NCBI GenBank assembly: GCA_008690995.1
Contig: VRMN01000017.1
Coordinates: forward strand, 186,001-250,000
Reading direction: 5' to 3'
DNA from: Porphyridium purpureum
Taxonomy: Eukaryota
DNA length: 64,000 bases
Position numbers and translations under genes: made by a program. Positions 1,750-62,459 of this stretch are shown here, in pieces (position 1 is the first letter of the stretch; each line of letters opens with the position of its first letter). Below the pieces are notes generated by a model. The model saw only the letters and a program-made list of their open reading frames with translations, had not been told where the DNA came from and did no database searches.

Positions 1750-3450
1750 TCAAGCGCAAGTCAACATCCTACAATCAAGAGAAAACCCGCACAGCAGCGC
1801 AGAATTATCACTGAAAGTGTCGCAAGAGTTCAGGTTTCCTACACTCCAACAAGAGAGGTCCTGGCCAAAAGCTCGAGCGTTCCTAAACAAAGAGCCCATG
1901 TCTGTCACACTGCTGACGTCCCAACCAGAAATATCCTGGTTGAACGCGGCGGCGCTCCGAAACATGGCATACATGTCTGTCACACCGCTGACGTCCCAAC
2001 CAGATATATCCTGGTTAAAGGCAGCGGCGTCAGAAAACATCAAGCGCATGTTTGTAGCACTGCTGACATCCCAACCAGAAATATCCTGGTTAAAAGAAGC
2101 GGCGAGCCAAAACATACCAGACATGTCTGTCACACTGCTGACGTCCCAACCAGAAATATCCTGGTTAAAAGAAACGGCGCCAGAAAACATGGATGTCATA
2201 TGTGTCACACTGCTGACGTCCCAAGCAGATAAATCCTGGTTAAAAGCAGCGGCGTCGGAGAACATATAGCGCATGTCTGTCACACTGCTGACATCCCAAC
2301 CAGAAATATCCTGGTTAAAAGAAGCAGCGCCCGAAAACATGGAGGACATACTTGTCACACTGCTGACGTCCCATCCAGAGATATCCTGGTTGAAGGATTT
2401 GGCACCACTGAACATGTCGGACATGCTTGCCACACTGCTGACATTCCAACCAGAAATGTCCTGGTCGAAGGAGGCGGCGCTCCAAAACATGCCTGACATG
2501 TCAGTCACACTGCTGACGTCCCAACCAGAAATATCCTGGTTGAAAGAAGCGCTGGCGGAAAACATGTAGGACATGTCTGTCGCACTGCTGACGTCCCAAC
2601 CAGATAGATTCTGGTTGAAAGAAGCAGTGAACGAAAACGCGTGGGACATGCCTCTCACACTGCTGACGTTCCAACCAGATATATCCTGATTAAAAGAAAC
2701 GGCGTCATAAAACATACTGCCCATGTCTCTGACACTGCTGACGTCCCAACCAGAAATATCCTGGTTAAAAGAAGCGGCTCCCAAAAACATACTGTGCGTG
2801 TTTGCGACCCTTGACAAGTTCCACGTACCAATCTCGCCATTGAAACTTGAAAAAGAAAACATGAAACTCAGATCTGTGACTGTGGGCGGCAAGTCGGCAG
2901 GAACACTCTTCAGCGACCTTATTCCAGAGAACGCCCCAGTCAGCTTGGTCAGGCCAAGCTCACCCCACGAAGCTACATTGGTTAAGCCATTGAGGAACCT
3001 GATTCCGCTCAGATCCCCCGAGACCACGACTCGATAGTTTCCCTGAACACTGTAAAAGTGATCACATGTTCCCGTGCTCGCGTAGTTCGCCACCGTTCCA
3101 TCGCCAAAATCGACCGCAACGTCCACAGGCCCCGCAGAAAACTCGAAGGATACTTCAGAAACGTCCTCGTACTCGAGCACCATTTCTTTCTGGGCTTCAA
3201 CAATCTCGACGTACACCTCACAGGGCTGCGCCGTGCACTCTGGGAACTCCCTAAGACATGCCGCCGAGACGGCAGCGCATGGAATCGCGCCTGCAGCGTC
3301 TGGAATCAGGCCGCGTGTTCCCTCCGCCATGCACGGGTTGGTCAGTTCGGTGCGCTGGCAAAGCACCTGCGCGACCGCTTTGAGCCACGAAGACAGAGCC
3401 GCGAACAGTGCGATGGATACAGCCCAAGCGAACGGAAACATCCGCGCCAT
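1750..3450 (-). CDS. DUF285/BspA-like (PARCEL-repeat) secreted or surface protein
   Basis: Hydrophobic signal peptide, PKD-like segment (VDFGDG...HFY...G.Y.V), then ~14 tandem 25-aa repeats of the form FNQDISGWDVSSVTDMSxMFxxAxS. Confidence 0.9.
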   Translation of the reverse strand: MARMFPFAWAVSIALFAALSSWLKAVAQVLCQRTELTNPCMAEGTRGLIPDAAGAIPCAAVSAACLREFPECTAQPCEVYVEIVEAQKEMVLEYEDVSEVSFEFSAGPVDVAVDFGDGTVANYASTGTCDHFYSVQGNYRVVVSGDLSGIRFLNGLTNVASWGELGLTKLTGAFSGIRSLKSVPADLPPTVTDLSFMFSFSSFNGEIGTWNLSRVANTHSMFLGAASFNQDISGWDVSSVRDMGSMFYDAVSFNQDISGWNVSSVRGMSHAFSFTASFNQNLSGWDVSSATDMSYMFSASASFNQDISGWDVSSVTDMSGMFWSAASFDQDISGWNVSSVASMSDMFSGAKSFNQDISGWDVSSVTSMSSMFSGAASFNQDISGWDVSSVTDMRYMFSDAAAFNQDLSAWDVSSVTHMTSMFSGAVSFNQDISGWDVSSVTDMSGMFWLAASFNQDISGWDVSSATNMRLMFSDAAAFNQDISGWDVSGVTDMYAMFRSAAAFNQDISGWDVSSVTDMGSLFRNARAFGQDLSCWSVGNLNSCDTFSDNSALLCGFSLDCRMLTCA

Positions 3451-16694: not shown

Positions 16695-16826
16695 TGTTCA
16701 GTGCAGAACTGTACCTCTGCAAGACGCGAAGTGGCGCGAGCCGATGTAATGCGGCATGACGTGAATTGGACATTGCGGAGTGTGTGCGGGATGCGGAGGT
16801 GGTGGAAGGGAAGAGGCGCGGGTTCA

Positions 16827-18200
16827 ATGTCCGCCGAGGCGATTGTGCGGATTCTGCTAGAGGAGGAAAGCGTGAACGGGTGGTGCGTGCAGTGGACGCA
16901 GCAGAAGCTCGCCGGCGTCCGCGATGGCAGCGTCGGCTCGTCGCTGCGCAGCGTCGCCACCGCGGGAGACGCGGACGCCGCGCGCTCCGCCGCCGACGAC
17001 TGGGTCGACCGGAGGCTCGCGTACGGCGAGCTCTCGCCACATGAGATGCGCTGTCTCGCCACACTGCCCACGCAGCGCGACTTGGACGCTGCCCTCATCG
17101 TCGATAGTGACGTCAGTCGCATCAACGACGCACGGACGTTGATGGCGTTCGTTCCCGTGTTCGAGGCGGGACGCTTCTGCTTCGGAATCACGTTTCAGAA
17201 CACGACCATCGTGCGCCTGCCGCCGGGCGTGGTCAAGCTGCCTGGACAGCGCTTCGTGGGCTTCCGCACGCGCTACGGCCACGCTCTCATCAATGTCGCC
17301 ATGTGCAGCGACGGCTCCGTGCTTTTCAACACGCTGCGGATATGGGAAAACCACAAGCTCAAGTTTGAGTCGTTTCATACCCCGCGAATCGAGAAGAACG
17401 CCACCATTCTGGCGTATGCAAGCATCGAGCGCCCGGGCTCATGCCAGCCCGATTGCACCGCGGGCAAGAGCCACTGCCTCTGCTGGCGCCAGCCTTGGCA
17501 TTGCCGAGCCGACCGTGAGCTCGCTGCGCCGCTCGGCTGGGCCGACCTGAGCAGCCAGCTGGCTCACGGTATTCCGGCGAAAAGTCTGGGTACCTACTCT
17601 GTCATTCTGCAAATGTATGCGGGCAATGGGCATCTGGCGCATCAGCAAGCGTTCCCAGCACGATATCAATCCTCGTATGGTGCCGAGTACCGCGATATGG
17701 ACAAGCTGCGCTTTTTATTTTTTGACCGCTTGACAACGACGTCTTCTGTGTATCACAGTCGGATGCCTGAGAGCTTCGAATTGGGCTCACATTGTCTTGA
17801 TGACGGTGCAGCTGAAGAAAACAGAAATGCGGTAGGTGCGGACGCTAGTACCGGCACGCCTCGGCGTGCACCTCGAAAGGGAAGTTGCGCATCGCATCAG
17901 GACGAGCTTTCATCATCTCCGTGCCCGCGCACGTTTCGCTGCGAGACATGTGGCAAAGAATTCAGGCGAATGAGCGAGCTACGTCGCCATGCAAAGACAA
18001 TACACGAAGGAGTTCGAAAGCACAGCTGCAGCCAGTGTGATCTCTCGTTCAGTCAGCTGTCGCACTTGAACTCACATATCCGCACCATCCACGAAAGACG
18101 GCGAGATTTTGTGTGTGAGCTGTGCACGGCAACCTTTGCGATGATAAGCAACTTTCGGCGCCATATGCGTACCGTTCATAGCGTTGGCAAAGAGCAGTGA
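16827..18200 (+). CDS. C2H2 zinc-finger protein (3 fingers) with conserved family-specific N-terminal domain, paralog 1
   Basis: Three C-terminal CxxC..HxxxxH fingers. Start set at MSAEAIVRILLEEE by alignment with paralogs. Confidence 0.88.
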   Translation: MSAEAIVRILLEEESVNGWCVQWTQQKLAGVRDGSVGSSLRSVATAGDADAARSAADDWVDRRLAYGELSPHEMRCLATLPTQRDLDAALIVDSDVSRINDARTLMAFVPVFEAGRFCFGITFQNTTIVRLPPGVVKLPGQRFVGFRTRYGHALINVAMCSDGSVLFNTLRIWENHKLKFESFHTPRIEKNATILAYASIERPGSCQPDCTAGKSHCLCWRQPWHCRADRELAAPLGWADLSSQLAHGIPAKSLGTYSVILQMYAGNGHLAHQQAFPARYQSSYGAEYRDMDKLRFLFFDRLTTTSSVYHSRMPESFELGSHCLDDGAAEENRNAVGADASTGTPRRAPRKGSCASHQDELSSSPCPRTFRCETCGKEFRRMSELRRHAKTIHEGVRKHSCSQCDLSFSQLSHLNSHIRTIHERRRDFVCELCTATFAMISNFRRHMRTVHSVGKEQ

Positions 18201-20182: not shown

Positions 20183-21583
20183 ATGTCGGCCAACTCTATA
20201 ATGAGAGTGTTGCTAGAGGAGGATGACGTCCATGAGTGGTGCGTAAAGTGGACGCAGCAGAAAGACACGCGCGCGCAAACGGGCGGCGCCGCAGCAGTGC
20301 TCGTCGAGTCTGCGTTGTCGTCGAGCGGGAACGACGAGACGTCCGGCGACATTCGCGTCGACGTAAAGGCGTCCTACAATGAGGTTCTGCCGGAGGATTT
20401 GAGGTGTCTGCCATTTTTGCCGACGACGCGTGACTTGGACTCCGCCGTGGTTGTTGACAACGACATTTCGCACATGAGTGACGGCAAAACGCTTATTCTG
20501 TACCTTCCCATGTACGAGAAAAGCCGGTTTTGCTTTGGCGTTTTGATGCAAAATACAACATTGCTACCATTGCCCCCAGGCGTGTACAAGCTGCCCGGCC
20601 ACCGCTTTGTCGGGTTCCGCACACGATACGGGCACGCAACCATCAATGTGGCCATGTGCAGTGATGGCTCTGTGATTGTCAACATGCTGCGTCTATGGGA
20701 CAATCGAAAGGCGCGATTCGACACGTTTCGTACGTGGCGCATCGAGGATAACGCCGGGGTCTTGAGCCACGCGACCATGGGCTCCTCTGGCTCGTGCCAA
20801 CCAGATTGTACGGACAAGAGCACATGCGTGTGTTGGCGCCAGCTCTGGCACCGCCGAACGGACAATGAGCTGGCCGCACCGCTGAGCTGGTCGCAGCTGG
20901 GTACGGCGCTTCGTCAAGGGTTGGTCACACCATCAGTGGATGGATTGGGCGTGCCGATGGAGATTCACGTATCAGCAGGCAACGGAGCGGTCAAACGCCG
21001 GATGCAGATTCCGGTGAATTTACAGAATGTGTTTGGAAGGGACTATAGCGATATGAACAAGCTGCGCTTTGTGTTCTTTGATCGGCTCACGACGGCCTCC
21101 TCTGTACGCCACAGCCCCTTGCTCACCGATGTCAGTGATGCGAACGACGGAGCGACGTCCGACCGTCTGCGTCGTGATGGCCAAATGAGAACGCGCGAGA
21201 CCGAGTACGGCGCAGCGCCGACCATGACACGGGCGCAGCTAGCAAACCCTTCCATTGGGGAGTGCTTTTCCGCCGACGATTCTGGCGAGGGCGCGACACG
21301 TGAAAGCGCACCCCAACGGAGCTGCGACAAGTGCGGCAAAGCGTTTCGACGAGTGAGCGAGCTGCGCCGCCATATCCGGCACGTACACGACAAGATCCGG
21401 CCGTACATCTGCGACGCGTGCGGATTCACATTTTCACAAAGATCCCACCTGAAGACGCACGCGCGCGTCGTGCACGACGGACGGTACGACTATACGTGCA
21501 CGGTCTGCGGCGCCGTTTTCGGCGCACTGGGCAATTTCAGGCGGCACATGGAAAGCAGGCACCGAGAGAGGTCGCCCTCTTGA
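20183..21583 (+). CDS. C2H2 zinc-finger protein, paralog 2
   Basis: MSANSIMRVLLEED start; GVYKLPGHRFVGFRTRYG; CQPDCT..C.CWRQ; three fingers. Confidence 0.88.
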   Translation: MSANSIMRVLLEEDDVHEWCVKWTQQKDTRAQTGGAAAVLVESALSSSGNDETSGDIRVDVKASYNEVLPEDLRCLPFLPTTRDLDSAVVVDNDISHMSDGKTLILYLPMYEKSRFCFGVLMQNTTLLPLPPGVYKLPGHRFVGFRTRYGHATINVAMCSDGSVIVNMLRLWDNRKARFDTFRTWRIEDNAGVLSHATMGSSGSCQPDCTDKSTCVCWRQLWHRRTDNELAAPLSWSQLGTALRQGLVTPSVDGLGVPMEIHVSAGNGAVKRRMQIPVNLQNVFGRDYSDMNKLRFVFFDRLTTASSVRHSPLLTDVSDANDGATSDRLRRDGQMRTRETEYGAAPTMTRAQLANPSIGECFSADDSGEGATRESAPQRSCDKCGKAFRRVSELRRHIRHVHDKIRPYICDACGFTFSQRSHLKTHARVVHDGRYDYTCTVCGAVFGALGNFRRHMESRHRERSPS

Positions 21584-21829: not shown

Positions 21830-23398
21830 ATGCCGGCAGACTCTCTATTGCGCGTCTTGCTGGAGGAGGACGTGGTGAATTCGTGGTGTGTGAAATGGTG
21901 TGAGGGCGTGCTTGCGGGTGAGGGCCTTGCGCGGCAAGTCGCCGTGCTTGGGGGTGGAGGCATGGGTGGCGTGCGCAGTGCGGCGTCGAGCGACTGCGCG
22001 CACTCGCAAGGAGCGCAGGATGTTCGGCAGCTGAGTGTAGGGCTCGACGTGCGGTATAATTACGACGTGCTCACTCCACGCGAGCTGCATTGCATTCCGT
22101 TCCTACCCACGCCGCGAGATCTCGAGAACGCACTGGTTGTGGATAGTAACGTGAAGCAGCTGAACGAGCGCACAATGGCTTTGATTGTCCCGATGTTTGA
22201 AACGGGAAGATTCGTCGCAGGGATTTCATATTTGAACACCAGCAGTATTCCACTCCCGGCGGGCGTGTACAAGCTGCCTGGCCACCGCTTTGTCGGCTTT
22301 CGCACCAGGTATGGTTACGCATACCTAGACGTGGGGATCTGCACAGACGGAACGGTTATTTTTCGCCTCTTCAGGATGTGGGAGAACGGCAGAACGAAAG
22401 CAGAAGTCTTCCACGTACCCCACATCGAAAAGGATGCACCGGTCCTGAGTTACACAAGCATGGAGCGTCGGGGATGCTGCCTTCCAGACTGTACGAATGA
22501 AGCATCGTGCATTTGCTGGCGGCAACCGTGGCATCGCCGATCCGATCGCGAGCTCGAGTCGCTATTGACGTGGAAAGAGTACAGGGCTCGCTATACACAA
22601 AGCATTCAGGGAATTCACGTAAGACACGATGGTCAAGTTCCGATCATGAATGTCTTTAGTGGCGATCGTCGGCTCATGTATCAGTTTCCAGTTCCTTTGC
22701 AGCTCGAGGTGGCGGCAGGCAACAGGTATCACGACATGGACAGGCTCAAGTTTCTCTTTTTTGACCGGCTGTCCATGGCTTCCTCTGCTTATCACAGTCG
22801 AGTCCTGACGCGTCCCGGGTCGCTTTCATCGCATTCTCCGAAGGCGAAAACCCGGAATGATGACGCTCGCAACGGGACTTTGGCAGAGGTGATTTCGTTT
22901 GAAACGATTGCACCGAGCAAGCGGGCGCGCGTGGACACGACTATCGCGGTGACCAGTAGTGGGGCGTCTTTCTCTCAGCCCTCGGTGAAGTCTGAAGATG
23001 ACGGCACAGGCGCCGGCGGGAGGCGCGCGGCCGGATGTTCGTCCGGTCGGTCGAAAGACGGGAAGTACAAGTGCACGATGTGTGGCAACGTGTTTGGGCG
23101 TAACAGCGAGCTTCGGCGACACGAGAAAACGGTGCACCTCAAGGCGAGCAATCATCAATGCACCAAATGCGAGCGCTCCTTCTCTCAGGCTGTGCACCTG
23201 CAAACGCACGTTCGCGCCGTGCACGAGAAGCGCCGCGACTTTCGATGCCCGGTGTGCCCGAGCTCGTTTGCCGTCTCCAGCAACTACAAGCGACACATGC
23301 GCTCCTTCCATCCATCCAACATAACTACCGTCAACATGAATGCTGCCACTTCCACTAGCAGGGTCGCGCCAAATATGTCGCGCTCGTCTGCTCGCTGA
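21830..23398 (+). CDS. C2H2 zinc-finger protein, paralog 3
   Basis: MPADSLLRVLLEED start; same conserved blocks; three fingers. Confidence 0.88.
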   Translation: MPADSLLRVLLEEDVVNSWCVKWCEGVLAGEGLARQVAVLGGGGMGGVRSAASSDCAHSQGAQDVRQLSVGLDVRYNYDVLTPRELHCIPFLPTPRDLENALVVDSNVKQLNERTMALIVPMFETGRFVAGISYLNTSSIPLPAGVYKLPGHRFVGFRTRYGYAYLDVGICTDGTVIFRLFRMWENGRTKAEVFHVPHIEKDAPVLSYTSMERRGCCLPDCTNEASCICWRQPWHRRSDRELESLLTWKEYRARYTQSIQGIHVRHDGQVPIMNVFSGDRRLMYQFPVPLQLEVAAGNRYHDMDRLKFLFFDRLSMASSAYHSRVLTRPGSLSSHSPKAKTRNDDARNGTLAEVISFETIAPSKRARVDTTIAVTSSGASFSQPSVKSEDDGTGAGGRRAAGCSSGRSKDGKYKCTMCGNVFGRNSELRRHEKTVHLKASNHQCTKCERSFSQAVHLQTHVRAVHEKRRDFRCPVCPSSFAVSSNYKRHMRSFHPSNITTVNMNAATSTSRVAPNMSRSSAR

Positions 23399-52798: not shown

Positions 52799-53445
52799 CC
52801 TTGCCCCCCTTCTTGATCAAAGCCTCCTCTCGATAGCGCTCCTTCTCGGCATCCACTAACCACTAGAAACCGCGCTCTCTCCGTGTTCTCATGCAGCACG
52901 CCACGCGCGCAACCCCCGAGCCCAGGTCCCCGCTTTTGTATTCTTCCCTGCCAGTCGAGCGTCACGCAATCCCCCGGTCGGCTCTCGCCCAACCACGTCG
53001 CCTTTCACGAACGCCCAAAAAAATCCTGATGCACGACCGCACGCCAACTCGACCGTCTCCCTCCTTCAAGCACAACGCGTCACCGCCCCGAATCGCGTGC
53101 CGCCTTGCCAATCTTATCGCGAATCGCGGCTTCCACTCTCTCTCCGTCCCCCGTTCCAAACCTCCCCCCCACTTCGCCTGCGCGCGCGCAACCAAGCACG
53201 ACCCGCGCGTGTGTGTGTGTATGTCTCTCTCCTCTCCCCCCTCCCTGCTTCCCCTCTCCACCCGCGGCGCCCTTCACACCACGCCGCCGACCTTCCTCTT
53301 CCCCCCTCACCACACACACGCCCCGCTCATCTGTCTCCCTTCCATCGCGTCCTTTTTCTATGACACGCGCCACCCGCCCCGTTTCTCCTCTGCGCGCCCA
53401 GCACACTTCGCCGCACCCAAAACTGCGCAAACAATGAACAAACAA

Positions 53446-54254
53446 CTTTAAATTCTCGCACGCTTGATGATGACAAGCGCACGAACCCGGATGACACAAC
53501 CCTTCTCAGATGACCGAACCCCAGCAACACGACGCACACAGCACAGAGAACACAACCACACGACGCACACAACACAGACGACGAATACCCGGGGCGTGGA
53601 AAATCCAGCGTATAGGGCCTCTACTATTGCCTTTCGCGTCGGCACAGACAGCACCGGTCTCGACAGGGGCAGGGTGTCGTAACGGACAAAGCCGCCGTCT
53701 GCCTTCAGTGCTCCAAGAGCACCGAAACCCCCCAGACACGATGTGCTGCTGGCTCTGCTACACAGGCTCAGCAAAAGGCCCCACGCCTTCCGACGACCAC
53801 GCCCAGGCACCCGACACCAAAGAACAACTCTTCCTTTTATTCTCTGTGTCCTTCTCCCTTGCCTCTCCTTCTTCCGCTCTAAAGAAAATCCGGGGAACCG
53901 CACAGGCCCGCGCCCATTATATACCCCGCCGTCCTTGCTGTCCTTGACGCGGAAGGGAGAAATTATTTCTCCCAAAGGCTGGGCTTTCCTCCGTTCGTTC
54001 CACAGAACGAAGCCACAGCCAGCCACGTCAGCAAGCGGCTCAATGGGTGCTGGCCGGCCGCCAAGCGGCTCCTGCTTCCCTCGGACACGCGACTCCGGCT
54101 CCTCGGGGCGAAAGACAACAATGCACAAACCAGAGGTACAGGGTAAAAAAACCACGTGGGCGAAAAAGCCCCTGTACCTCAAACAATTCCGAGACGCCGT
54201 ACCTCCGGGTGTACACCCAGGGCGTCTCTCGGACCGGAACACTTTTAATCCATG
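53446..54254 (-). repeat. 3' LTR
   Basis: Direct repeat of 58641-59419 with a few substitutions and a ~30-nt internal duplication near 53530-53570. Confidence 0.92.
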
Positions 54255-56128
54255 CTCCTCCTTCCGATCTGAGGGACGCGTAACATAGTCCAACACCTGA
54301 TATGACCTTCCGGAAACAAAGGTTTTGTCATCAAGTCGGACACGTTTTCCCCCGTCCTCACATATTCCAATCTCACCAGCTTTTGCTTCTCGCAAACTTG
54401 GTGTATCCACGCCAAGTCCGTGGCTCTGGTCACTGCCATGTGATGCAACTTTGGCGAGTAGCCCATCTTGACCGCACGGAGAACAACTTGACTATCACAA
54501 AGCAGGGTCAACGCATAATCACCCTCCTGCACGCTTCGAAGAAACGACAATGCCGGAAACAGAGACAACTGCACCGCTTCTTCCAGAGCGGCCATCTCAG
54601 ACTCAGAGGTCGAAGAGCTCACAAAGCGTTGCCTTCTGGAGCTCCAGTCGACCAGATACTTGTTTCCACCCGCGACCAAGTACGTCACTCGTCCAGACGT
54701 CGACTTGCGCGTTTCCGGACATCCAGCGAAGTCGGCATCAGCATAGCCCAAGACGCTTACGTCACCGACCTTCAATGACGTCATCCGCAAATACTCAAGT
54801 GGTTCACGAGGAACCTTCAAGTATTGCATGACGCGAACCAGGAGTCTCTCAGCTGCGACGTTCCAGCTATCCACGTACCGAGCCACCACTCCAACTGCGT
54901 ACGAGATATCCGGTCTGACCGTCCTGGCCAACCACAGCAGCCGCCCAACATGCTCGCGTATTTTCAGATGTCCATGTTCGACTTGAACATCCAATACAGC
55001 GTCAGCATTCATCTTCTCACCTGGTGATTTCACCGCTCGCAGCACCTGCCCAAGTTCTTCTTCGAATTCCTTCACCACCAAAGCTTGGTAGTGATCATGA
55101 TCCAACGAAAGCCGTGCCGCCGACTCCGAGATCGTGAGACCTAGGAACCTCAACGGGGTACCTTCCGAGAGGACTTCTGGCTCCTTCTCAATGAGGAACT
55201 CTGACCTCAACTCTCGAAATATCTCACCCCGATCCTTCTCGGCACACGCGAGCAGGCCATCATCGACATACAAGGCCAAGAGTGCAACAGATGCACTTCC
55301 CGCCATCTTTTTCACGTATACGTTCTTCTCACCGTGAATCAAGTCCCACCCGAACTTTTGAAGTCTTCTGCGGGCATCCTGGGAAAAGTCAGACCCGCTT
55401 CTTGGCAAGCCATAAAGCGCCCTTCTCAAGCGAACGACAAGTCCATCACCTCCTCCTGGAACGTGACGGGGCAACATGGCAAACGTCGGTGGTCCTGATA
55501 AGTCAGCGTGTAAGTACGCCGACGTCACATCGAACGACACGATTTTCAATCCCAGGATCGCGGCCAAAGCTATCAACATTCTGATTGCAGACAGGCCCGC
55601 GGGCACCTCATAGTCAAACACATCCTGAGTGACCTTCCCTGAGGCATCCCAAATCCTATTTCCACCAGCAACAAGCCGACACTTGACCTTGCGAAACTCC
55701 TCCGGAAGCTCAGCGAACTTCAATCCGAATATAAAGTGTGTCCGCACAAATCGTGCGCCTGGGACCTTGAGAGCTTCTTCCCTTGAAATGGGTTGCTCAT
55801 CCCATACCTTGAATCGAATCATCAAGTCCACTTCTTTTTGCATGGCTTCTCTTCCAGCCGAAGAAGCCAGAGCTTGGCTCGTCTGCAACAAAGTTGTCAA
55901 GTTCAATTGCGGTGTTTCTGGAGCAACTCCTGCGCGTTGCCTCCAATTTTCCTCCGAGAGGCCCATATTATGAGCCCGGGCTCGCACATCCTTTCCGTTT
56001 CTTGAATCGCGGAACACTGCCTTGTATTCTTGCAGAGTTCTTTCCCACTTCCCCCAGCCAAAGAGCCGTAAGCCATCCATGATGGCCTGATCCTCTTCCC
56101 GGCTCCAAGATACCCTGGGTTTTCGTTT
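54245..56128 (-). CDS. pol C-terminal part: Myb/SANT-like domain, Ty1/copia RT (RVT_2) and RNase H
   Basis: KCRLVAGGN, FDVTSAYLHADL, LRRALYGLPRSG, LYVDD, RPDISYAV, GYADADFAG, SSTSESEMAAL, NVSDLMTKPL. Stop codon lies inside the 3' LTR. Confidence 0.92.
   Translation of the reverse strand, partial: KRKPRVSWSREEDQAIMDGLRLFGWGKWERTLQEYKAVFRDSRNGKDVRARAHNMGLSEENWRQRAGVAPETPQLNLTTLLQTSQALASSAGREAMQKEVDLMIRFKVWDEQPISREEALKVPGARFVRTHFIFGLKFAELPEEFRKVKCRLVAGGNRIWDASGKVTQDVFDYEVPAGLSAIRMLIALAAILGLKIVSFDVTSAYLHADLSGPPTFAMLPRHVPGGGDGLVVRLRRALYGLPRSGSDFSQDARRRLQKFGWDLIHGEKNVYVKKMAGSASVALLALYVDDGLLACAEKDRGEIFRELRSEFLIEKEPEVLSEGTPLRFLGLTISESAARLSLDHDHYQALVVKEFEEELGQVLRAVKSPGEKMNADAVLDVQVEHGHLKIREHVGRLLWLARTVRPDISYAVGVVARYVDSWNVAAERLLVRVMQYLKVPREPLEYLRMTSLKVGDVSVLGYADADFAGCPETRKSTSGRVTYLVAGGNKYLVDWSSRRQRFVSSSTSESEMAALEEAVQLSLFPALSFLRSVQEGDYALTLLCDSQVVLRAVKMGYSPKLHHMAVTRATDLAWIHQVCEKQKLVRLEYVRTGENVSDLMTKPLFPEGHIRCWTMLRVPQIGRRSMD
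54255..54265 (-). other. Polypurine tract
   Basis: GGAAGGAGGAG immediately before the 3' LTR. Confidence 0.8.
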
Positions 56129-57665
56129 CCCCCCTTCTTCCAACAGGTAGGGGAACATCCTCCTCCAAGTTCCCGGATTCACGCGCCTCGGCCGTATTCG
56201 TAGGCAACACCATAGTCTCTTGACTATCCGGTTCTTCCTGCCTAGAGTGAAAGTCGATTTCACCCTCACGTGCCGAGACCTCCTCGTCATCCCTTGTTTC
56301 CAAAGTCCGCATTGGAAACACTTCAGGGAACGCCTTGAAGTCCTGAGTGCGAGTCAGCCTCGGTGCCGCGCTCGTCCACTCCTCCTGAGGAAGGACCCAG
56401 ATTGCCAGCGGATGCTCCGCAACTCCAACAAGGACTCCAATCTTTCCTCTGGGTGCATACTTGTTCTCAGGTTGATCATTCTTGAACACCACCTTGCATC
56501 CAAATGGTACTGCTACCTTCCCCCGCTTCCATCTCTCACCGTACCTCATTTCATACGGAGACTTCCCAGACCTCTTGTCTGGGTGCAGCCGATTGAACAT
56601 GAAGACGAAATGCTGAGCGGCATGCAAAAACCACCGCTTTCCCAGCCCAGACTGCAGGAGATTTGCTCGTACCCCCTGATTCAAAGTATGATGGAAACGT
56701 TCCTGTTCAGCGTGGCTATTTGGTCTATGTGGGACCCCAATCTCATGCTTCACGAGATTCTCCCGTACCAAATTGCTCACATTTCCCCTGAACTCGTTTC
56801 CATCATCTGTCCTCAGTACCTTTGGCCATCCTCGCCCGGCTTGCACGCTTGTCCAAGCTTCAGCAACCGCCGTATGCGTTTTGGCTCTCAATCCTGCCAG
56901 TGTGGCCCACCTCGTCGCTCTATCGATGTGCGTCAGTATGTACTTCGCCCCATCGATGGCTTCCACGTTACGTCCGGGCTCCACCAGGTCGATCCCAACT
57001 TCGTCATTGAGCGACAAAGTGGACAAGTCCTTCTCCAGCCTTCTTGCTGGTTGGCTCTTGATCTTGGCCACAACACACGTCTCACAATCATCCCGCATCG
57101 GCATGTGAGTCAACGCATGTTCCATCCCGGCCATCTTTCCTTCGACCCCTTCACTGGCACTCTCCTCTTCTCCATCGTACGCTTGATTTCCGCTTGACTC
57201 GGAAAGAGCGTCCACGACATTCACCATCGCACAATCTTCCACATTTTCAAGTCCCAAGTCCATCGAACCCCTCTGCCAATCAATCCTCGGGTTCACGCGA
57301 CTCAGCCAGTCCCACCCGAGAATTGCATCCATTTGCAGCGGTCCGACATAAAACTTGACCGGCCCTTTCCAGAACCCAAGATCAACATGCTGCAACACCG
57401 GGCCATGCACTAAGACACTTTGCCCACCCGCAAGCTTGACCATTCCGTTCTCGCGCCCTTCAAATCTGCCGACAAAGCGAGATCCAAGAAAATTGTGCGA
57501 TGCTCCGCTGTCCACCAGAAATTGGACAGACTCGCCATCTAAAGTTCCACGCTTGTAGAGCAACCTCGACGCCGCATCAGCGCGCCAGACCTCACCTACA
57601 AAGCCCATCCCGGGAGGTTCCGTTCCCCTCGAGTGCACCTCCCAGCTTCTCCCTCGAGGTTTTAG
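56129..57665 (-). CDS. pol N-terminal part: aspartic protease + integrase
   Basis: FLVDSGASHNF...DAILGWDWLSRVNPRIDW; HALTHMPMRDDCETC; D-D-E core VGIDLV / LRTDDGNEF / EQERFHHTL; FGCKV, GVLVG. In the -1 frame relative to gag. Confidence 0.9.
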
Positions 57666-57671
57666 TTTTCC
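57612..57671 (-). other. Predicted -1 ribosomal frameshift signal (slippery site + H-type pseudoknot)
   Basis: G GAA AAC, 5-nt spacer, stem 1 CCTCGAG/CTCGAGG, stem 2 GGGAGGT/ACCTCCC. Confidence 0.8.
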
Positions 57672-58618
57672 GGGCCTCCCGCCAAGTGCCCATTCCGCTT
57701 TGGGCAATTGGGTTTGATGTGGCCGCGCTGCCCGCAATGGTAGCATCTGACTTTGCCCATGTCCGCATGCTTGCGCTTCTCCGGCTGGCGTTTCTCCACG
57801 ACGCCCAAATCCATTGGCGCCGTCCCGGCATACGACGAGCTGTTCCGGTAGTTTGGACTCGAGGCGCCATGAAAAGCCTCCCTCATGTCTCCTCCAAACC
57901 TACCAACCTGCTCCGCAGCCAACGCCGCCCTCAGCGACTCTTCCAGCGTCTTCGTGTCCTGACGCGCCACCTCAAGGCGAAGCTTCTCCTTCAGGCCGAG
58001 AGTGAAGATGGTGTTGAGCTCGGCATCTGTCACACTATCCACGGACAGAGCCACCATCCTCAGGCGCTGCTCAAACTCAGCAACAGTCATCTTGCCCTGC
58101 TTCAGCTGATACAAGTTCGTTCGAGCAGTCAGGTATGCCTGCGGCGGCTCAAATGCCGTCCGCACGAAGCTCGCGAACGCATTCCAACCGGACTCGGCCA
58201 ATGCCATCCTCTGTTCCTCAGGGCGAGCTGCCCACAACAGCGCGGCATCCTTCTCAAAGAAGCGCGACGCTACGATCACCTTCTGCGACTCCAGCGCTCC
58301 AGCTGGCATGCACATGTCCAAGTCTTGCTTCATCCTCGACAACCACTCGTTCACAACGAGTTTGTCGCGCTGTCCGTCGTATTTTCTCAAGCTGCGTCCA
58401 ATCAGCGATGCAACGGTCCTTTCCGTTTCGCCGGGACCAGCTGACACAGATGCCTGATGCATCACATTCTGCAGCATCTCCTGCAAGAGGCGATTTCCCT
58501 CCTGCAGCTGCACAATCATCATTTCTTGTCCTCCGATACGAGCATGAAGCTGGTTGAAAGCTTCAATCCACGACGCGCCGCCCTGCAGGCCCTGCACGTT
58601 CATTCCCTCAGAATCCAT
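57662..58618 (-). CDS. Gag (Ty3/gypsy-like) with CCHC zinc knuckle
   Basis: KYDGQRD..V.EWL, LYQLKQGKMTVAEF..., FTLGLKEKLR, APMDLG, CYHCGQRGHIKPNC. Confidence 0.92.
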   Translation of the reverse strand: MDSEGMNVQGLQGGASWIEAFNQLHARIGGQEMMIVQLQEGNRLLQEMLQNVMHQASVSAGPGETERTVASLIGRSLRKYDGQRDKLVVNEWLSRMKQDLDMCMPAGALESQKVIVASRFFEKDAALLWAARPEEQRMALAESGWNAFASFVRTAFEPPQAYLTARTNLYQLKQGKMTVAEFEQRLRMVALSVDSVTDAELNTIFTLGLKEKLRLEVARQDTKTLEESLRAALAAEQVGRFGGDMREAFHGASSPNYRNSSSYAGTAPMDLGVVEKRQPEKRKHADMGKVRCYHCGQRGHIKPNCPKRNGHLAGGPEN

Positions 58619-58622
58619 CTTC

Positions 58623-58640
58623 GCCGATGCGATGATACCA
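58623..58640 (-). other. Primer-binding site, probably initiator tRNA-Met
   Basis: TGGTATCATCGC directly after the 5' LTR; first 8 nt match the classical iMet PBS TGGTATCA. Confidence 0.75.
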
Positions 58641-59419
58641 CTTTAAATTCTCGCACGCTTGATGATGACAAGCGCACGAGCCCGGATGACACAACCCTTC
58701 TCAGATGACCGAACCCCAGCAACACGACGCACACAACACAGACGACGAATACCCGGGGCGTGGAAAATCCAACGTATAGGGCCTCTACTATTGCCTTTCG
58801 CGTCGGCACAGACAGCACCGGTCTCGACAGGGGCAGGGTGTCGTAACGGACAAAGCCGCCGTCTGCCTTCAGTGCTCTAAGAGCACCGAAACCCCCCAGA
58901 CACGATGTGCTGCTGGCTCTGCTACACAGGCTCAGCAAAAGGCCCCACGCCTTCCGACGGCCACGCCCAGGCACCCGACACCAAAGAACAAACTCCTCTT
59001 TTATTCTCTGTGTCCTACTCCCTTGCCTCTCCTTCTTCCGCTCTAAAGAAAATCCGGGGAACCGCACAGGCCCGCGCCCATTATATACCCCGCCGTCCTT
59101 GCTGTCCTTGACGCGGAAGGGAGAAATTATTTCTCCCAAAGGCTGGGCTTTCCTCCGTTCGTTCCACAGAACGAAGCCACAGCCAGCCACGTCAGCAAGC
59201 GGCTCAATGGGTGCTGGCCGGCCGCCAAGCGGCTCCTGCTTCCCTCGGACACGCGACTCCGGCTCCTCGGGGCGAAAGACAACAATGCACAAACCAGAGG
59301 TACAGGGTAAAAAAAACCACGTGGGCGAAAAAGCCCCTGTACCTCAAACAATTCCGAGACGCCGTACCTCCGGGTGTACACCCAGGGCGTCTCTCGGACC
59401 GGAACACTTTTAATCCATG
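58641..59419 (-). repeat. 5' LTR
   Basis: Direct repeat of 53446-54254; TATATAA on the minus strand near 59080. Confidence 0.92.
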
Positions 59420-59954: not shown

Positions 59955-62459
59955 ATGGGGAATTGCTTGTCGGCCTCGGAACCGAGTGCGGCGGCCTCGG
60001 GCAAGCAGGCAGACAAGCCATCGTCTCCGACGCCCGTCAAGAAAAATACGGATGCTGTTCCCAAGGCGTCAGGACCAGAGCGGCCCGCGGCAAAGAAGGT
60101 ACAGGCCGCGCCCGTCGTGGACTCGACATCGTCGGCATCGTACTCGGCAAACGGTGGGTCGGAGCTTTTCGGACTGTTTGCCAAGAAGGACGAGGAAGAC
60201 AAAACCTTTTCTCTGCTTGGGGCCAAAAAGTCCAAGGTGCGCCTTGCCCAGCATGGCTTTGACGACTCAGCGGCAGCGGCGGATGCGCAGGCACCGCACA
60301 TTTCCGTGCTCGAGGGTGAAGCCATGACCATGTGGTACCGCGTGATTGTGGCGTCCGCGTCAACGCCAATCGACGAAAAGAGCGTTCAACAATGCATAGA
60401 CAGCGTCTTTGCCTTGGTGGACTCCAAGTTCAACAACTGGAACCCGAATAGCGAGATCAATCAGCTGAACGCGCTCAAGGCCAAGAAAAAGATGGACGCA
60501 TCGCCGGAAATGCACCAGCTCTTTGCGTTGATTGATAACGTGCACACACTCTCTGACGGCCGTTTTGACCCCACGGTGGATCCACTGATCAAGATCTGGA
60601 CAAAGAGTCTGGTCGAGTACGGGCATCCGTGCTCCTCACAGGACACTTCGCACCTCAAGTTTGCTCTAGGCTGGAAGACGAAAGTGACGCGCAAAAACTT
60701 GTCGGTTATGCTGGAGAATTCAAACACAAGTATCGACTTGTGCGGCATTGTGAAAGGTTATGCGGTGGACGAGATTCTAACACGAATCCAGAATGCGCGC
60801 TGGGTGGGGAACAACAAGATTAGCATTTACGTGGACTGGGCAGGGGATATTCGCAGCATCGGTATGCACCCGACTGGAAGGCCATGGCGCTCGGCTGTGA
60901 TGCAGCCGCCAGAGCTCAAACGCCTCTTTGATCTCTGGGCCTCTGACCGCATGGATCTCGCAGTTTCCGAAAAGGACGTGCAGTTTTTCGTAGACTTCCC
61001 GGACTCACATGGGGGTGCCGCGCTAGCCACGAGCGGCGACTATTTTCGCATTCAGAAATTCGGTTACCATCATATTTATGATATTACGAACCATACACCT
61101 TTGAAGGCCGGCGTGGGCTCGCTTGCCTCCGTGTCCGTACTTGCAAGCGATTGCACTACAGCGGATTCGCTCGCGACGGCTGGCATGACATGTGGCACCG
61201 TAAAAGCGGCCTCTGCATTTTTCGACGGTCTCATGAAATCGCAGCCTGATACATTGCTTGGTTACTGCCTAATTGGCCGGTCCAATGGCGATGTCAAGTA
61301 TACGAGTGTCTTTAAGAGACACAATGATTACCTTGAATCACACGGCGTCAAGACAAAAGCTTCTGACGTTTCGCCCGCACCGGGAAGCCTGATTGGTGTA
61401 GAACCTGCCGCCCTCAAGAAGCGAAACACGGACTCCAACAAGGCGCTCTTTCCAGCCGTTCTCAATCAGCTTCCGCGTACGTTGTGTGTGGTCGGTGTTA
61501 ACCAGTCAGGTGGGAAGCCATTCGTGACTGGGGTCTGCGGCTCAGTCGCGTCGTGCTCTCTATCCCCGCCATCCTTTTCCCTGCTGGTGGACCCAAGTGT
61601 GCTACCAGTTGCGGTGGGCACCGAGCTGCACGTTGCCTACTTGAACGAGAACACACGAGAACTTGTCGAAGCCTCGACAAATAATAGCAGCTCGTTCGTG
61701 GACTGGGCTCTGAAGCCTGGTGTACAATGCAAGGACGCGAAGGACTGGCAGAAAATGTTCGGCAAGGTATGCGCTGGGATGCTTGGGACAGTGGTGAAAG
61801 TGGAGAGTGTGGACGCCCATTGTGCGGTTGCTATTGTGAATCCGAGCTCCTTCACACTGATGCCCAAGAGCGGGGCGCGGCTACACGGAATTGGGTCGCG
61901 TTTGGTGTCTGGTCCGATTGTTGCGGAGAAGTACATTTGCGACTCGGTCGCGATTGAGGAGGACGAGCGTCTCAAGCGATTAATGCGCTCGAATCGGTCA
62001 CCGGTCTGTGTAGTATCCGTAAGCTCAGCAGACGGCCGCGCTCATGCGCTCACGGCGAGCTCGGTGCGAACCGAGCCGCGCACGGGTGCTAGCTTTGCGT
62101 TCAATATCCAGAAGGGGTCCGTTTTTCGCTCATCTCTTGGCTTTGAAGGCTCACGCGTAGCGCTCCACTGGCTTCACCCCGTGCAAGAGTCTTTGGCGGA
62201 ATACCACACCAAGTCAGTCACACTTGACACATCGCGCGCCGACTCGCTGTCAAATGTGGTCTCTCGTGACGAGATGGGCAGCGGCTGGCCGCCAGTGATT
62301 GCGGGCTGCGCGGCGGTTCTAATTTGCACCGTGGTGTGTGTGACTGACGCAGGTGATCATTTGGTATACGTGTGCCGCGCAACACACGTTCCGGAAGACT
62401 TGGGCACCGGCGTGTTCCTGACGTATGGCAACGGCAACTACTCCGTCCTGGAAGGTTAG
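59955..62459 (+). CDS. ApbE-type FAD:protein FMN transferase fused to two flavin-reductase-like domains, N-terminal MGNC acylation motif
   Basis: ApbE motifs SEINQLN, GRFDPTV.PL, IDLCGIVKGYAVD, AGDI, LATSGDY, HHIYD, ADSLATA. C-terminal PVCVVS...ALTASSV...DAGDHLVYV, plus a degenerate first copy (SVASCSLSPP). Confidence 0.85.
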   Translation: MGNCLSASEPSAAASGKQADKPSSPTPVKKNTDAVPKASGPERPAAKKVQAAPVVDSTSSASYSANGGSELFGLFAKKDEEDKTFSLLGAKKSKVRLAQHGFDDSAAAADAQAPHISVLEGEAMTMWYRVIVASASTPIDEKSVQQCIDSVFALVDSKFNNWNPNSEINQLNALKAKKKMDASPEMHQLFALIDNVHTLSDGRFDPTVDPLIKIWTKSLVEYGHPCSSQDTSHLKFALGWKTKVTRKNLSVMLENSNTSIDLCGIVKGYAVDEILTRIQNARWVGNNKISIYVDWAGDIRSIGMHPTGRPWRSAVMQPPELKRLFDLWASDRMDLAVSEKDVQFFVDFPDSHGGAALATSGDYFRIQKFGYHHIYDITNHTPLKAGVGSLASVSVLASDCTTADSLATAGMTCGTVKAASAFFDGLMKSQPDTLLGYCLIGRSNGDVKYTSVFKRHNDYLESHGVKTKASDVSPAPGSLIGVEPAALKKRNTDSNKALFPAVLNQLPRTLCVVGVNQSGGKPFVTGVCGSVASCSLSPPSFSLLVDPSVLPVAVGTELHVAYLNENTRELVEASTNNSSSFVDWALKPGVQCKDAKDWQKMFGKVCAGMLGTVVKVESVDAHCAVAIVNPSSFTLMPKSGARLHGIGSRLVSGPIVAEKYICDSVAIEEDERLKRLMRSNRSPVCVVSVSSADGRAHALTASSVRTEPRTGASFAFNIQKGSVFRSSLGFEGSRVALHWLHPVQESLAEYHTKSVTLDTSRADSLSNVVSRDEMGSGWPPVIAGCAAVLICTVVCVTDAGDHLVYVCRATHVPEDLGTGVFLTYGNGNYSVLEG

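What the first reader, a model, noticed from the sequence alone, without database searches (positions are those of the whole stretch)
53446..59419. Apparent Gypsy/Copia chimeric LTR retrotransposon
Seen: Gag carries the PMDLG motif and a CCHC knuckle, the protease has the DSGAS.NF...ILG.DWL..NP.IDW signature, and pol is reached by a -1 frameshift. All three are typical of Ty3/gypsy. The downstream order, however, is PR-IN-RT-RH, and the RT/RNase H motifs (K.RLVA.G, DV.SAYL, ALYGL..SG, YVDD, Y.DADFAG, S..ESE) are Ty1/copia. Established: the two superfamilies are normally internally consistent across domains. Inference: a recombinant lineage with a gypsy particle/protease module and copia enzymes; near-identical LTRs suggest recent activity.
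Basis: partly seen in the sequence, partly recalled or inferred. Interest (0 to 1): 0.88.

Follow-up and report, generated by a model that had tools for sequence, protein, structure and literature searches.

The report
Gypsy-shell, copia-enzyme hybrid retrotransposon family
This is a multi-copy jumping gene of the red microalga Porphyridium whose shell protein and protease match the gypsy group while its integrase, reverse transcriptase and RNase H match the copia group, likely through an old module swap across a boundary usually treated as fixed, and it also carries a Myb-like domain that may help aim integration.

Summary
Confirmed. Window 53446-59419 (minus strand) is an LTR retrotransposon of Porphyridium purpureum. 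Gag (Ty3_capsid, PMDLG, CCHC) and protease (ILG motif) match a chromovirus; integrase, RT and RNase H, in copia order, match copia only. It is not a one-off: 12 of 14 other gene models of the family hold Gag, protease and RT, short-read contigs span the junction, and four more P. purpureum families share the build. On an RT-RNase H tree the five families nest inside a copia clade whose other members keep a copia-type protease (AU test against a basal position, p=0.00014), so the gypsy module is derived. New here: a slippery heptamer plus H-type pseudoknot at the gag stop; a TRF1-like Myb domain between integrase and RT; LTR ends CA..AG. Corrections: this copy has a one-base frameshift near 56129 and no target-site duplication, so its LTR identity does not date it. 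I found no description in 10 literature searches; 0 of 69 copia elements in a reference table have an ILG protease. This scan noted similar hybrids in other genomes (unchecked). One versus several captures is unresolved.

The parts
58641..59419 (-). 5' LTR, 779 nt, ends 5'-CA..AG-3'; TATA-like TATATAAT at 59080-59087
   Evidence: TATAAT hexamer seen; ends agree with junctions of other copies
58623..58640 (-). Primer binding site TGGTATCATCGC..., directly after the LTR; likely tRNA-iMet (inferred from the TGGTATCA start, recalled; the tRNA was not found, no genome held)
   Evidence: no tRNA in the window
57662..58618 (-). gag, 318 aa: coiled N-terminus, Ty3/chromovirus-type capsid (about 57899-58414), PMDLG, one CCHC knuckle
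57662..57671 (-). Slippery heptamer G GAA AAC followed at once by the gag stop; Gags of family B and of P0077 also end in E-N
57612..57659 (-). Predicted H-type pseudoknot 5 nt after the heptamer (two 7-bp Watson-Crick stems); an alternative long stem-loop is the nested minimum-energy fold
   Evidence: 0 of 300 shuffles, 0 of 124 pol windows as good; z -0.79 for the nested fold
57270..57590 (-). Gypsy-type aspartic protease (DSGA, ILG, NP.IDW)
57120..57269 (-). Acidic linker between protease and integrase: inferred crossover zone between the gypsy and copia modules
   Evidence: similarity to copia-PR relative P0075 starts at the integrase zinc motif; domain table
56330..57119 (-). Copia-clade integrase: compact H-x3-H-x7-C-x2-C zinc motif, DDE core, SH3-like region; no GPY/F or chromodomain hit
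56129..56129 (-). One-base frameshift that splits pol in this copy (real mutation or assembly error in a homopolymer)
   Evidence: contigs without it in 8 of 8 runs; other copies continuous, e.g. P0079
55960..56128 (-). Myb-like (TRF1/telobox-type) domain between integrase and RT
   Evidence: PF00249 3.6e-05; best solved relatives TRF1 6.3e-04, B-Myb 8.9e-04
55050..55900 (-). Copia-type reverse transcriptase (RVT_2; YVDD at 55259-55270)
54245..54760 (-). Copia-type RNase H; the pol stop lies just inside the 3' LTR
54255..54265 (-). Polypurine tract GGAAGGAGGAG abutting the 3' LTR
53446..54254 (-). 3' LTR, 809 nt

Best explanation
This is one copy of a multi-copy LTR retrotransposon family of Porphyridium purpureum that joins a gypsy (chromovirus-like) Gag and protease to a copia integrase, reverse transcriptase and RNase H, likely because an ancestor in a protist copia clade had its Gag-protease module replaced once by that of a gypsy element. 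The swap point is inferred to lie in the protease-integrase linker, a natural polyprotein boundary, as a template switch between co-packaged RNAs would give. The working cycle is inferred from anatomy: the 5' LTR drives a genomic RNA; ribosomes make Gag and, by a predicted -1 slip at G GAA AAC stimulated by the pseudoknot, a minority of Gag-Pol; Gag builds a Ty3/Arc-like shell; the gypsy protease would cut out copia IN and RT-RH at co-adapted sites; RT primes on a host tRNA at the PBS and on the PPT; IN inserts the cDNA, and the Myb-like domain, if it stays on IN, would tether it to DNA or chromatin. Shown: parts, order, ancestry of each domain, many near-identical copies, five families. Inferred: swap mechanism and number, frameshifting, processing, Myb role. 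That the element is a true hybrid lineage I put at about 0.92; the confidence below is for the single-capture version.
For: Domain table: window capsid 58 bits and PR 20 bits against chromovirus L001 but at most 1.1 and 4.3 bits against 26 copia-type proteins (12 same-clade, 12 canonical, 2 CoDi-like); window IN, RT, RH score 0 or less against L001 and RT 20-127 bits against those 26. Capsid HMM of six hybrid Gags: L001 121 bits, L002 93, the 26 copia-type proteins 1.1 or less. L001 is a true chromovirus (RVT_1, SH3_Tf2-1, Chromo). Gag profile against PDB: dArc1 7.6e-07 and Ty3 7.1e-04 over the capsid, Drosophila copia Gag only at the knuckle. PR profiles: hybrids vs L001 96.8% over 97 columns; same-clade relatives vs canonical copia 96%, vs L001 14.7%. 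Llorens 2009: LLS marks copia proteases, ILG the others; 0 of 69 copia rows have ILG (62 LLS, 7 lost). Copies: 12 of 14 other family A models on 10 scaffolds hold capsid, PR and YVDD; family B 14 pols with this PR, and 10 of 10 listed Gag accessions are adjacent to a pol accession; families C, D, E. Tree: one change of PR type among 24 rows of known state; enclosing clade 100/100; hybrids outside all copia-PR rows rejected, p-AU 0.00014. No spliced joints in 4 RNA or guessed-RNA runs, contigs span the gag-pol boundary.
Against: The branch uniting the five hybrid families is not starred (85/93; 88), and 7 of its 12 rows have no N-terminus to score. On the IN tree family E does not join the other four. 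Window capsid and PR score higher to L001 (58, 20 bits) than to families C, D, E (32-43, 3-5 bits), which fits a second capture; the capsid tree leaves it open (75/86). Only three gypsy Gags and one gypsy PR were available; no donor in Porphyridium was found. The hybrid PR profile also matches canonical copia PRs locally (93.8%, 71 N-terminal columns), and two copia-PR relatives get weak Asp_protease_2 hits, so Pfam alone does not separate the types. Fold searches rank Arc/Ty3 above copia but weakly (no E under 0.001; Z 10.5 dArc1, 7.5 Ty1 Drt2, 6.4 Ty3, 5.5 copia). Family B is multi-copy without the Myb domain, so it is dispensable.
Confidence: 0.68

Rival explanations
1. Same hybrid, but made more than once: families A-B took (or re-took) their Gag-protease-frameshift cassette from a chromovirus separately from families C, D and E, so the copia enzymes of this clade accept gypsy modules repeatedly.
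For: A-B protease is closer to chromovirus L001 (42-43 bits) than to C, D, E (23-26 bits); only A-B keep NP.IDW; A-B express Gag separately while family C is annotated as one 1530-aa protein with its knuckle; family E is apart on the IN tree.
Against: All five families fall in one RT-RH branch with no copia-PR row; the best capsid tree keeps six hybrid Gags together against three gypsy Gags (75/86, 74% of bootstrap trees); all share APM(D/E)LG. Rate differences can explain the scores.
Confidence: 0.24
2. No swap: the gypsy-like Gag and protease are the ancestral state kept by an early copia branch, or arose by convergence.
For: All LTR-element capsids and proteases are homologous (recalled; Troyka paper notes Gag similarity across groups); the hybrid PR profile matches copia PRs in its N-terminal half; earlier scan notes report gypsy-type Gags in other copia branches (unchecked).
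Against: The hybrids nest inside a 100/100 clade whose 12 other scored members and the 7 canonical rows outside have LLS-type proteases; basal position rejected; capsid similarity to a chromovirus is 121 bits against about 0 for same-clade Gags.
Confidence: 0.05
3. A local accident: a gypsy element nested into a copia element, or a mis-assembly.
For: This copy has no TSD, a frameshift, and a left flank that continues into other sequence in runs X1, X2, X12; no listed contig spans the whole element.
Against: Single short-read contigs run from 56366 to 58669 (X3), 56737-58670 (X12), 56957-58670 (X20) and 55428-57859 (X7); the same junction is in dozens of annotated proteins and five families; one LTR pair, one PBS, one PPT.
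Confidence: 0.02
4. A Gmr1-like gypsy element that merely has copia domain order.
For: Gmr1 has ILG protease and integrase after protease.
Against: RT is RVT_2, scores nothing against gypsy L001 and sits deep in the copia tree; IN has no GPY/F-type hit and groups with copia-clade integrases.
Confidence: 0.01

Closest known systems
Ty1/copia (Pseudoviridae), nearest an apparently unnamed protist clade (P0075, P0106, P0108, P0109, P0117, P0118)
   Same: Order PR-IN-RT-RH; RVT_2 RT, copia RNase H motifs; IN with SH3-like region and the same compact zinc motif; RT-RH and IN trees
   Different: ILG instead of LLS protease; Ty3-type capsid; -1 frame with pseudoknot; Myb domain; CA..AG ends
Ty3/gypsy chromoviruses (e.g. 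metagenome element L001; Ty3, dArc capsids)
   Same: Capsid, PM(D/E)LG, single CCHC, protease with ILG and NP.I.W
   Different: No RVT_1, no RT-RH-IN order, no GPY/F module or chromodomain
PyRE10G of Porphyra yezoensis / GalEa clade (copia with a 'gypsy-like integrase'; title seen in a reference list only)
   Same: Red-algal copia element reported as mixed; GalEa-like elements occur in Porphyridium cruentum
   Different: There the integrase is the odd part; GalEa has an LLS protease, DTG(C/A), HX4HX30CX2C, TG..CA ends and PBS TGGTAGCAGAGC, none of which this element has
Gmr1-like gypsy elements
   Same: ILG protease followed by integrase
   Different: Gmr1 enzymes are gypsy with GPY/F; here they are copia
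CoDi-A copia elements of diatoms
   Same: Copia elements with an extra targeting-type domain (chromodomain) at the integrase C-terminus
   Different: Here the domain is Myb-like; CoDi-like proteins are the outgroup in my trees; CoDi-A proteases are scored LLS or lost, not ILG

Membership tests
Ty1/copia (Pseudoviridae) | Domain order PR-IN-RT-RH | tested here: met
Ty1/copia (Pseudoviridae) | RT and RNase H group with copia | tested here: met
   RVT_2 1.9e-17; trees; 0 bits to gypsy L001
Ty1/copia (Pseudoviridae) | Integrase of copia type without GPY/F module | tested here: met
   SH3_retrovirus weak hit, no SH3_Tf2-1 or Chromo; IN tree
Ty1/copia (Pseudoviridae) | Protease with LLS motif | tested here: not met
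   ILGWDWL; no Pol_BBD hit at E 0.5; Llorens 2009
Ty1/copia (Pseudoviridae) | Copia-type Gag (Retrotran_gag_2 or similarity to same-clade Gags) | tested here: not met
   no such Pfam hit; 1.1 bits or less against 26 copia-type proteins; copia Gag matched at the knuckle only
Ty1/copia (Pseudoviridae) | TG..CA termini | tested here: not met
   CA..AG here and at junctions of other copies
Ty1/copia (Pseudoviridae) | 4-6 bp target-site duplication | tested here: inconclusive
   none at this locus, whose flanks may belong to different insertions; one contig shows two LTR ends 5 nt apart
Ty3/gypsy chromovirus (Metaviridae) | Ty3-type capsid by sequence | tested here: met
Ty3/gypsy chromovirus (Metaviridae) | Capsid fold closer to Ty3/Arc than to copia/Ty1 | tested here: inconclusive
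   dArc ranks first but no E under 0.001; Ty1 Drt2 Z 7.5 above Ty3 Z 6.4
Ty3/gypsy chromovirus (Metaviridae) | ILG-type protease | tested here: met
Ty3/gypsy chromovirus (Metaviridae) | RVT_1 RT, order RT-RH-IN, GPY/F and chromodomain | tested here: not met
   against the L001 control
Gmr1-like gypsy | Gypsy RT and GPY/F integrase in copia order | tested here: not met
GalEa clade | DTG(C/A)/LLS protease, HX4HX30CX2C zinc motif, PBS TGGTAGCAGAGC, TG..CA ends | tested here: not met
GalEa clade | RT-RH groups with named GalEa references | not tested
   no named GalEa sequence was returned by any search
-1 programmed frameshift signal | Slippery heptamer, 5-9 nt spacer, stimulatory structure | tested here: met
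   GGA as a tolerated first triplet is recalled, not from a call
-1 programmed frameshift signal | Measured frameshifting | not testable with these tools
   needs reporter or ribosome profiling
TRF/telobox Myb domain | Helix 1-2 similarity to TRF1 | tested here: met
   E 6.3e-04 over residues 3-43
TRF/telobox Myb domain | Conserved recognition helix and telomeric-repeat binding | tested here: inconclusive
   third helix reads KDVRARAHN, third Trp absent, outside the TRF1 match; B-Myb scores nearly the same

The most novel reading that the evidence does not exclude
A deep protist clade of copia elements treats Gag-protease as an exchangeable cassette and has captured it from gypsy elements repeatedly; in Porphyridium the hybrids radiated into at least five families and evolved their own integration system, with a host-derived telobox-type Myb domain on integrase steering insertion to AAC-rich DNA upstream of genes and with LTR ends that lack the universal CA.
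Probability: 0.2. Interest if true: 0.9.

Novelty: new variant of a known kind. Interest (0 to 1): 0.75.

Why it matters
Gypsy and copia are treated as lineages that do not exchange core modules; a reference survey removed apparent chimeras as likely mis-predictions. A multi-family, recently amplified lineage shows that a shell and protease can work with enzymes of the other superfamily, so RNA packaging, polyprotein cleavage and priming are more interchangeable than assumed, and Gag or protease cannot be used alone to classify elements. It gives natural material for asking how a protease re-adapts to foreign cleavage sites, how integrase handles non-CA ends, and whether Myb domains are another route, beside chromodomains, to targeted integration in a compact genome. 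P. purpureum is a cultured laboratory alga, so these points can be examined.

Tried and rejected
No whole genome was held, so copy number, TSDs and the primer tRNA could not be read from DNA. Gag search found only Porphyridium-type relatives (3 hits) and the PR-region search only families A and B: no donor. Viral contigs gave nothing for gag alignments or L001; genome contigs was not scanned. Single-sequence PDB searches were uninformative (Gag: knuckle only; PR: ASPRV1 and Ddi1 at E 0.15-0.31). First Gag model was poor (pLDDT 54) and its fold searches weak; the second (pLDDT 77, alignment included two gypsy Gags) gave no E under 0.001. ESM Atlas hits (Retrotrans_gag/Ty3_capsid and RVP_2 clusters, 0.95) share 160-171 features, borderline, so are leads only. 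Splicing as the route to Gag-Pol: the public gene models skip the knuckle in 13 of 13 capsid-bearing cases, but no joint was seen in 4 runs (contigs drop rare forms), so I read those 'introns' as annotation bridges over the frame change. A second programmed frameshift between IN and RT: rejected, the break is absent from contigs of 8 of 8 runs. Dating by LTR divergence (0.8%): rejected for this copy. The bacterial promoter scan is not applicable. Sequence and word look-ups in earlier scan notes found nothing for this family or for a Myb-bearing copia. PMC8321522 passages held nothing relevant. Trees used a chosen subset: 74 and 34 of 217 RT-RH regions, 45 integrases, one row per family, picked for known protease state or closeness; protease state was set by motif search and inspection, and four rows (P0075, P0108, P0109, P0111) show only the C-terminal half.


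Full report
Observation. The element lies on the minus strand between direct repeats at 58641-59419 and 53446-54254 (771 matches, 6 substitutions, one 31-nt indel). It has a PBS right after the 5' LTR, a polypurine tract before the 3' LTR, gag (58618-57662) and a pol entered in the -1 frame. Pfam gives Retrotrans_gag, Ty3_capsid and zf-CCHC for Gag; gag-asp_proteas, Asp_protease_2, rve and SH3_retrovirus for the next frame; RVT_2 and Myb_DNA-binding for the last. The RT frame is 98% identical to a named Porphyridium purpureum protein, which gives the host.

It is a family, not an accident. The cluster of P0079 has 17 members, 15 listed; leaving out the Gag flagged as the window's own, 14 models on 10 scaffolds all contain this protease, and 12 contain capsid, protease and YVDD together; RT cores are 97-100% identical to the window. 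P0060 is probably this locus and is not counted. Contigs from independent short-read runs span gag-PR-IN (56366-58669 in X3, 56737-58670 in X12, 56957-58670 in X20) and PR-IN-Myb-RT (55428-57859 in X7); none listed spans the whole element. The one-base frameshift near 56129 that splits pol here is absent from contigs of 8 of 8 runs laid, and 12 of 14 other models carry the Myb domain whole, so it is private to this copy or an assembly error.

Four more families share the build. Family B (P0061; RT-RH 72% identical) has the same protease in 14 pols, and 10 of 10 listed Gag accessions are adjacent to a pol accession. A search of 1.84 billion representatives added C (P0098), D (P0100/P0248) and E (P0107/P0251), each with Ty3_capsid, a gypsy-type protease and RVT_2, all P. 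purpureum. Every hybrid for which I saw both halves is from this species; P0077 (Logan) is a sixth Gag of unknown host.

Ancestry by domain. The best Gag relative in metagenomes, L001, is an ordinary chromovirus. Window capsid and protease score 58 and 20 bits against it and at most 1.1 and 4.3 bits against 26 copia-type proteins; IN, RT and RH score nothing against it, while RT scores 20-127 bits against those 26. A capsid HMM of six hybrid Gags gives L001 121 bits and those 26 at most 1.1. Against solved structures the Gag profile matches dArc1, Ty3, dArc2 and PEG10 over the capsid and Drosophila copia Gag only at the knuckle. Protease profiles: hybrids versus L001 96.8% over 97 columns; same-clade relatives versus canonical copia 96%, versus L001 14.7%; hybrids versus canonical copia 93.8% but only over 71 N-terminal columns, 52.8% globally. 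Llorens et al. 2009 (PMC2774666; passages, section 12 parts 1-2 of 3, supplement table AF3A rows) state that LLS marks copia proteases and ILG the rest; of 69 copia rows 62 are LLS, 7 lost, none ILG. Fold searches rank dArc first but do not discriminate firmly.

Direction of the swap. In RT-RH trees (74 rows quick; 34 rows careful; chosen from 217) the five families lie in one branch with no copia-protease row (85/93, not starred; 7 of 12 rows unscorable), inside a 100/100 clade whose 12 other scored rows, like the 7 canonical rows outside, have LLS-type proteases. One change of state suffices. Holding all copia-protease rows together, which would make the hybrids basal, costs 50.5 log units, p-AU 0.00014. 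The integrase travels with RT: it falls in the same clade (95/83), with A-D together (99/97) and E unplaced. Similarity to the copia-protease relative P0075 begins at the integrase zinc motif, placing the crossover in the PR-IN linker. Whether capture happened once is open: A-B Gag and protease score higher to L001 than to C-E, yet the capsid tree keeps six hybrid Gags together at 75/86.

Expression. Gag ends G GAA AAC UAA; Gags of family B and P0077 also end in E-N. Five bases on lies an H-type pseudoknot with two 7-bp Watson-Crick stems, matched by 0 of 300 shuffles and 0 of 124 pol windows under my scoring; the nested minimum-energy fold is an unremarkable long hairpin (z -0.79). No splice joints appeared in two RNA and two guessed-RNA runs; in the RNA runs the element is covered while the adjacent flank has no depth, a weak sign of transcription. 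Copia elements described in PMC5580714 (passages) use frameshifting (Ty1), readthrough (Tca2), splicing or degradation; a -1 pseudoknot signal is the gypsy/retroviral pattern (recalled).

Extras. The Myb-like domain matches TRF1 best (E 6.3e-04; B-Myb 8.9e-04), lacks the third tryptophan, and occurs in families A, C, D, P0101, P0003 and weakly P0112, P0113, but not B or E. Its position parallels the chromodomain of chromoviruses and CoDi-A; targeting is inference. LTR ends are CA..AG here and at junctions of other copies; departures from TG..CA are known in Zam and Troyka (PMC3601003, PMC12440569; passages) but not this pair in what I read. This locus has no TSD and its left flank continues into other sequence in X1, X2 and X12, while X2 supports the right junction; recombination between two copies or a mis-join would explain that, so LTR identity does not date this copy.

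Novelty. Ten full-text searches found no description of a gypsy Gag-protease on a copia pol, of these Porphyridium families, or of a Myb-bearing copia. Neumann et al. 2019 (PMC6317226, passages) report recombination among copia lineages and removed apparent chimeras. PyRE10G, 'copia-like with gypsy-like integrase', was seen as a title only and is placed with GalEa (PMC3587641, PMC5445492, PMC2806351; passages). Subscription journals and Repbase were not searchable and may hold these families. Earlier scan notes report like hybrids in other genomes; I could not test them or link them to this clade. By RT and domain order it would be filed under copia, but it fails the protease, Gag and termini features, so I call it a hybrid variant. 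Interest 0.75.

Noticed in passing
P0100, P0251, P0099, P0102, P0103, P0105, P0075, P0106, P0108, P0109, P0111, P0118 (after the integrase SH3-like region): A conserved Cys-rich motif, CxxC-x(6-16)-CxxC...H...C-x(3-5)-CxC, follows integrase in 12 of 20 proteins of this copia clade examined, with no Pfam match seen; absent from families A, B and C. Possibly an undescribed zinc domain.
   Followed up: partly
window 53425-53445 and loose ends: Several flanks next to the 3' LTR end of other copies are AAC-rich, and this copy sits between two divergent genes (starts at 52798 and 59955), hinting at insertion upstream of genes. Not counted or tested against background.
   Followed up: no
run X2, joint 54254 to 53444 (table 5c): A contig joins an LTR end to another LTR start with 5 bases between, at about single-copy depth: tandem copies at one site, which would imply a 5-bp duplication.
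   Followed up: no
window 53594-54229 (runs X1 and X10): Contigs skip 634 bases inside the LTR and carry many differences: a related family or short derivative with a much shorter LTR.
   Followed up: no
window 59955-62459 (+): Intronless gene fusing an ApbE flavin transferase domain (2e-43) to a flavin reductase-like domain (3e-12) with an N-terminal MGNC start; ApbE is mostly bacterial (recalled).
   Followed up: no
window 16749-18200, 20183-21583, 21830-23398 (+): Three paralogous genes with a shared unknown N-terminal domain and C-terminal C2H2-like zinc fingers.
   Followed up: no
window 1750-3450 (-): Secreted-looking protein with many tandem 'FNQDISGWDVSSV' repeats, resembling bacterial DUF285/BspA surface repeats (recalled).
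   Followed up: no
P0117: A same-clade copia polyprotein ends in an AAA_28 NTPase domain after RNase H (E 4.6e-13).
   Followed up: no
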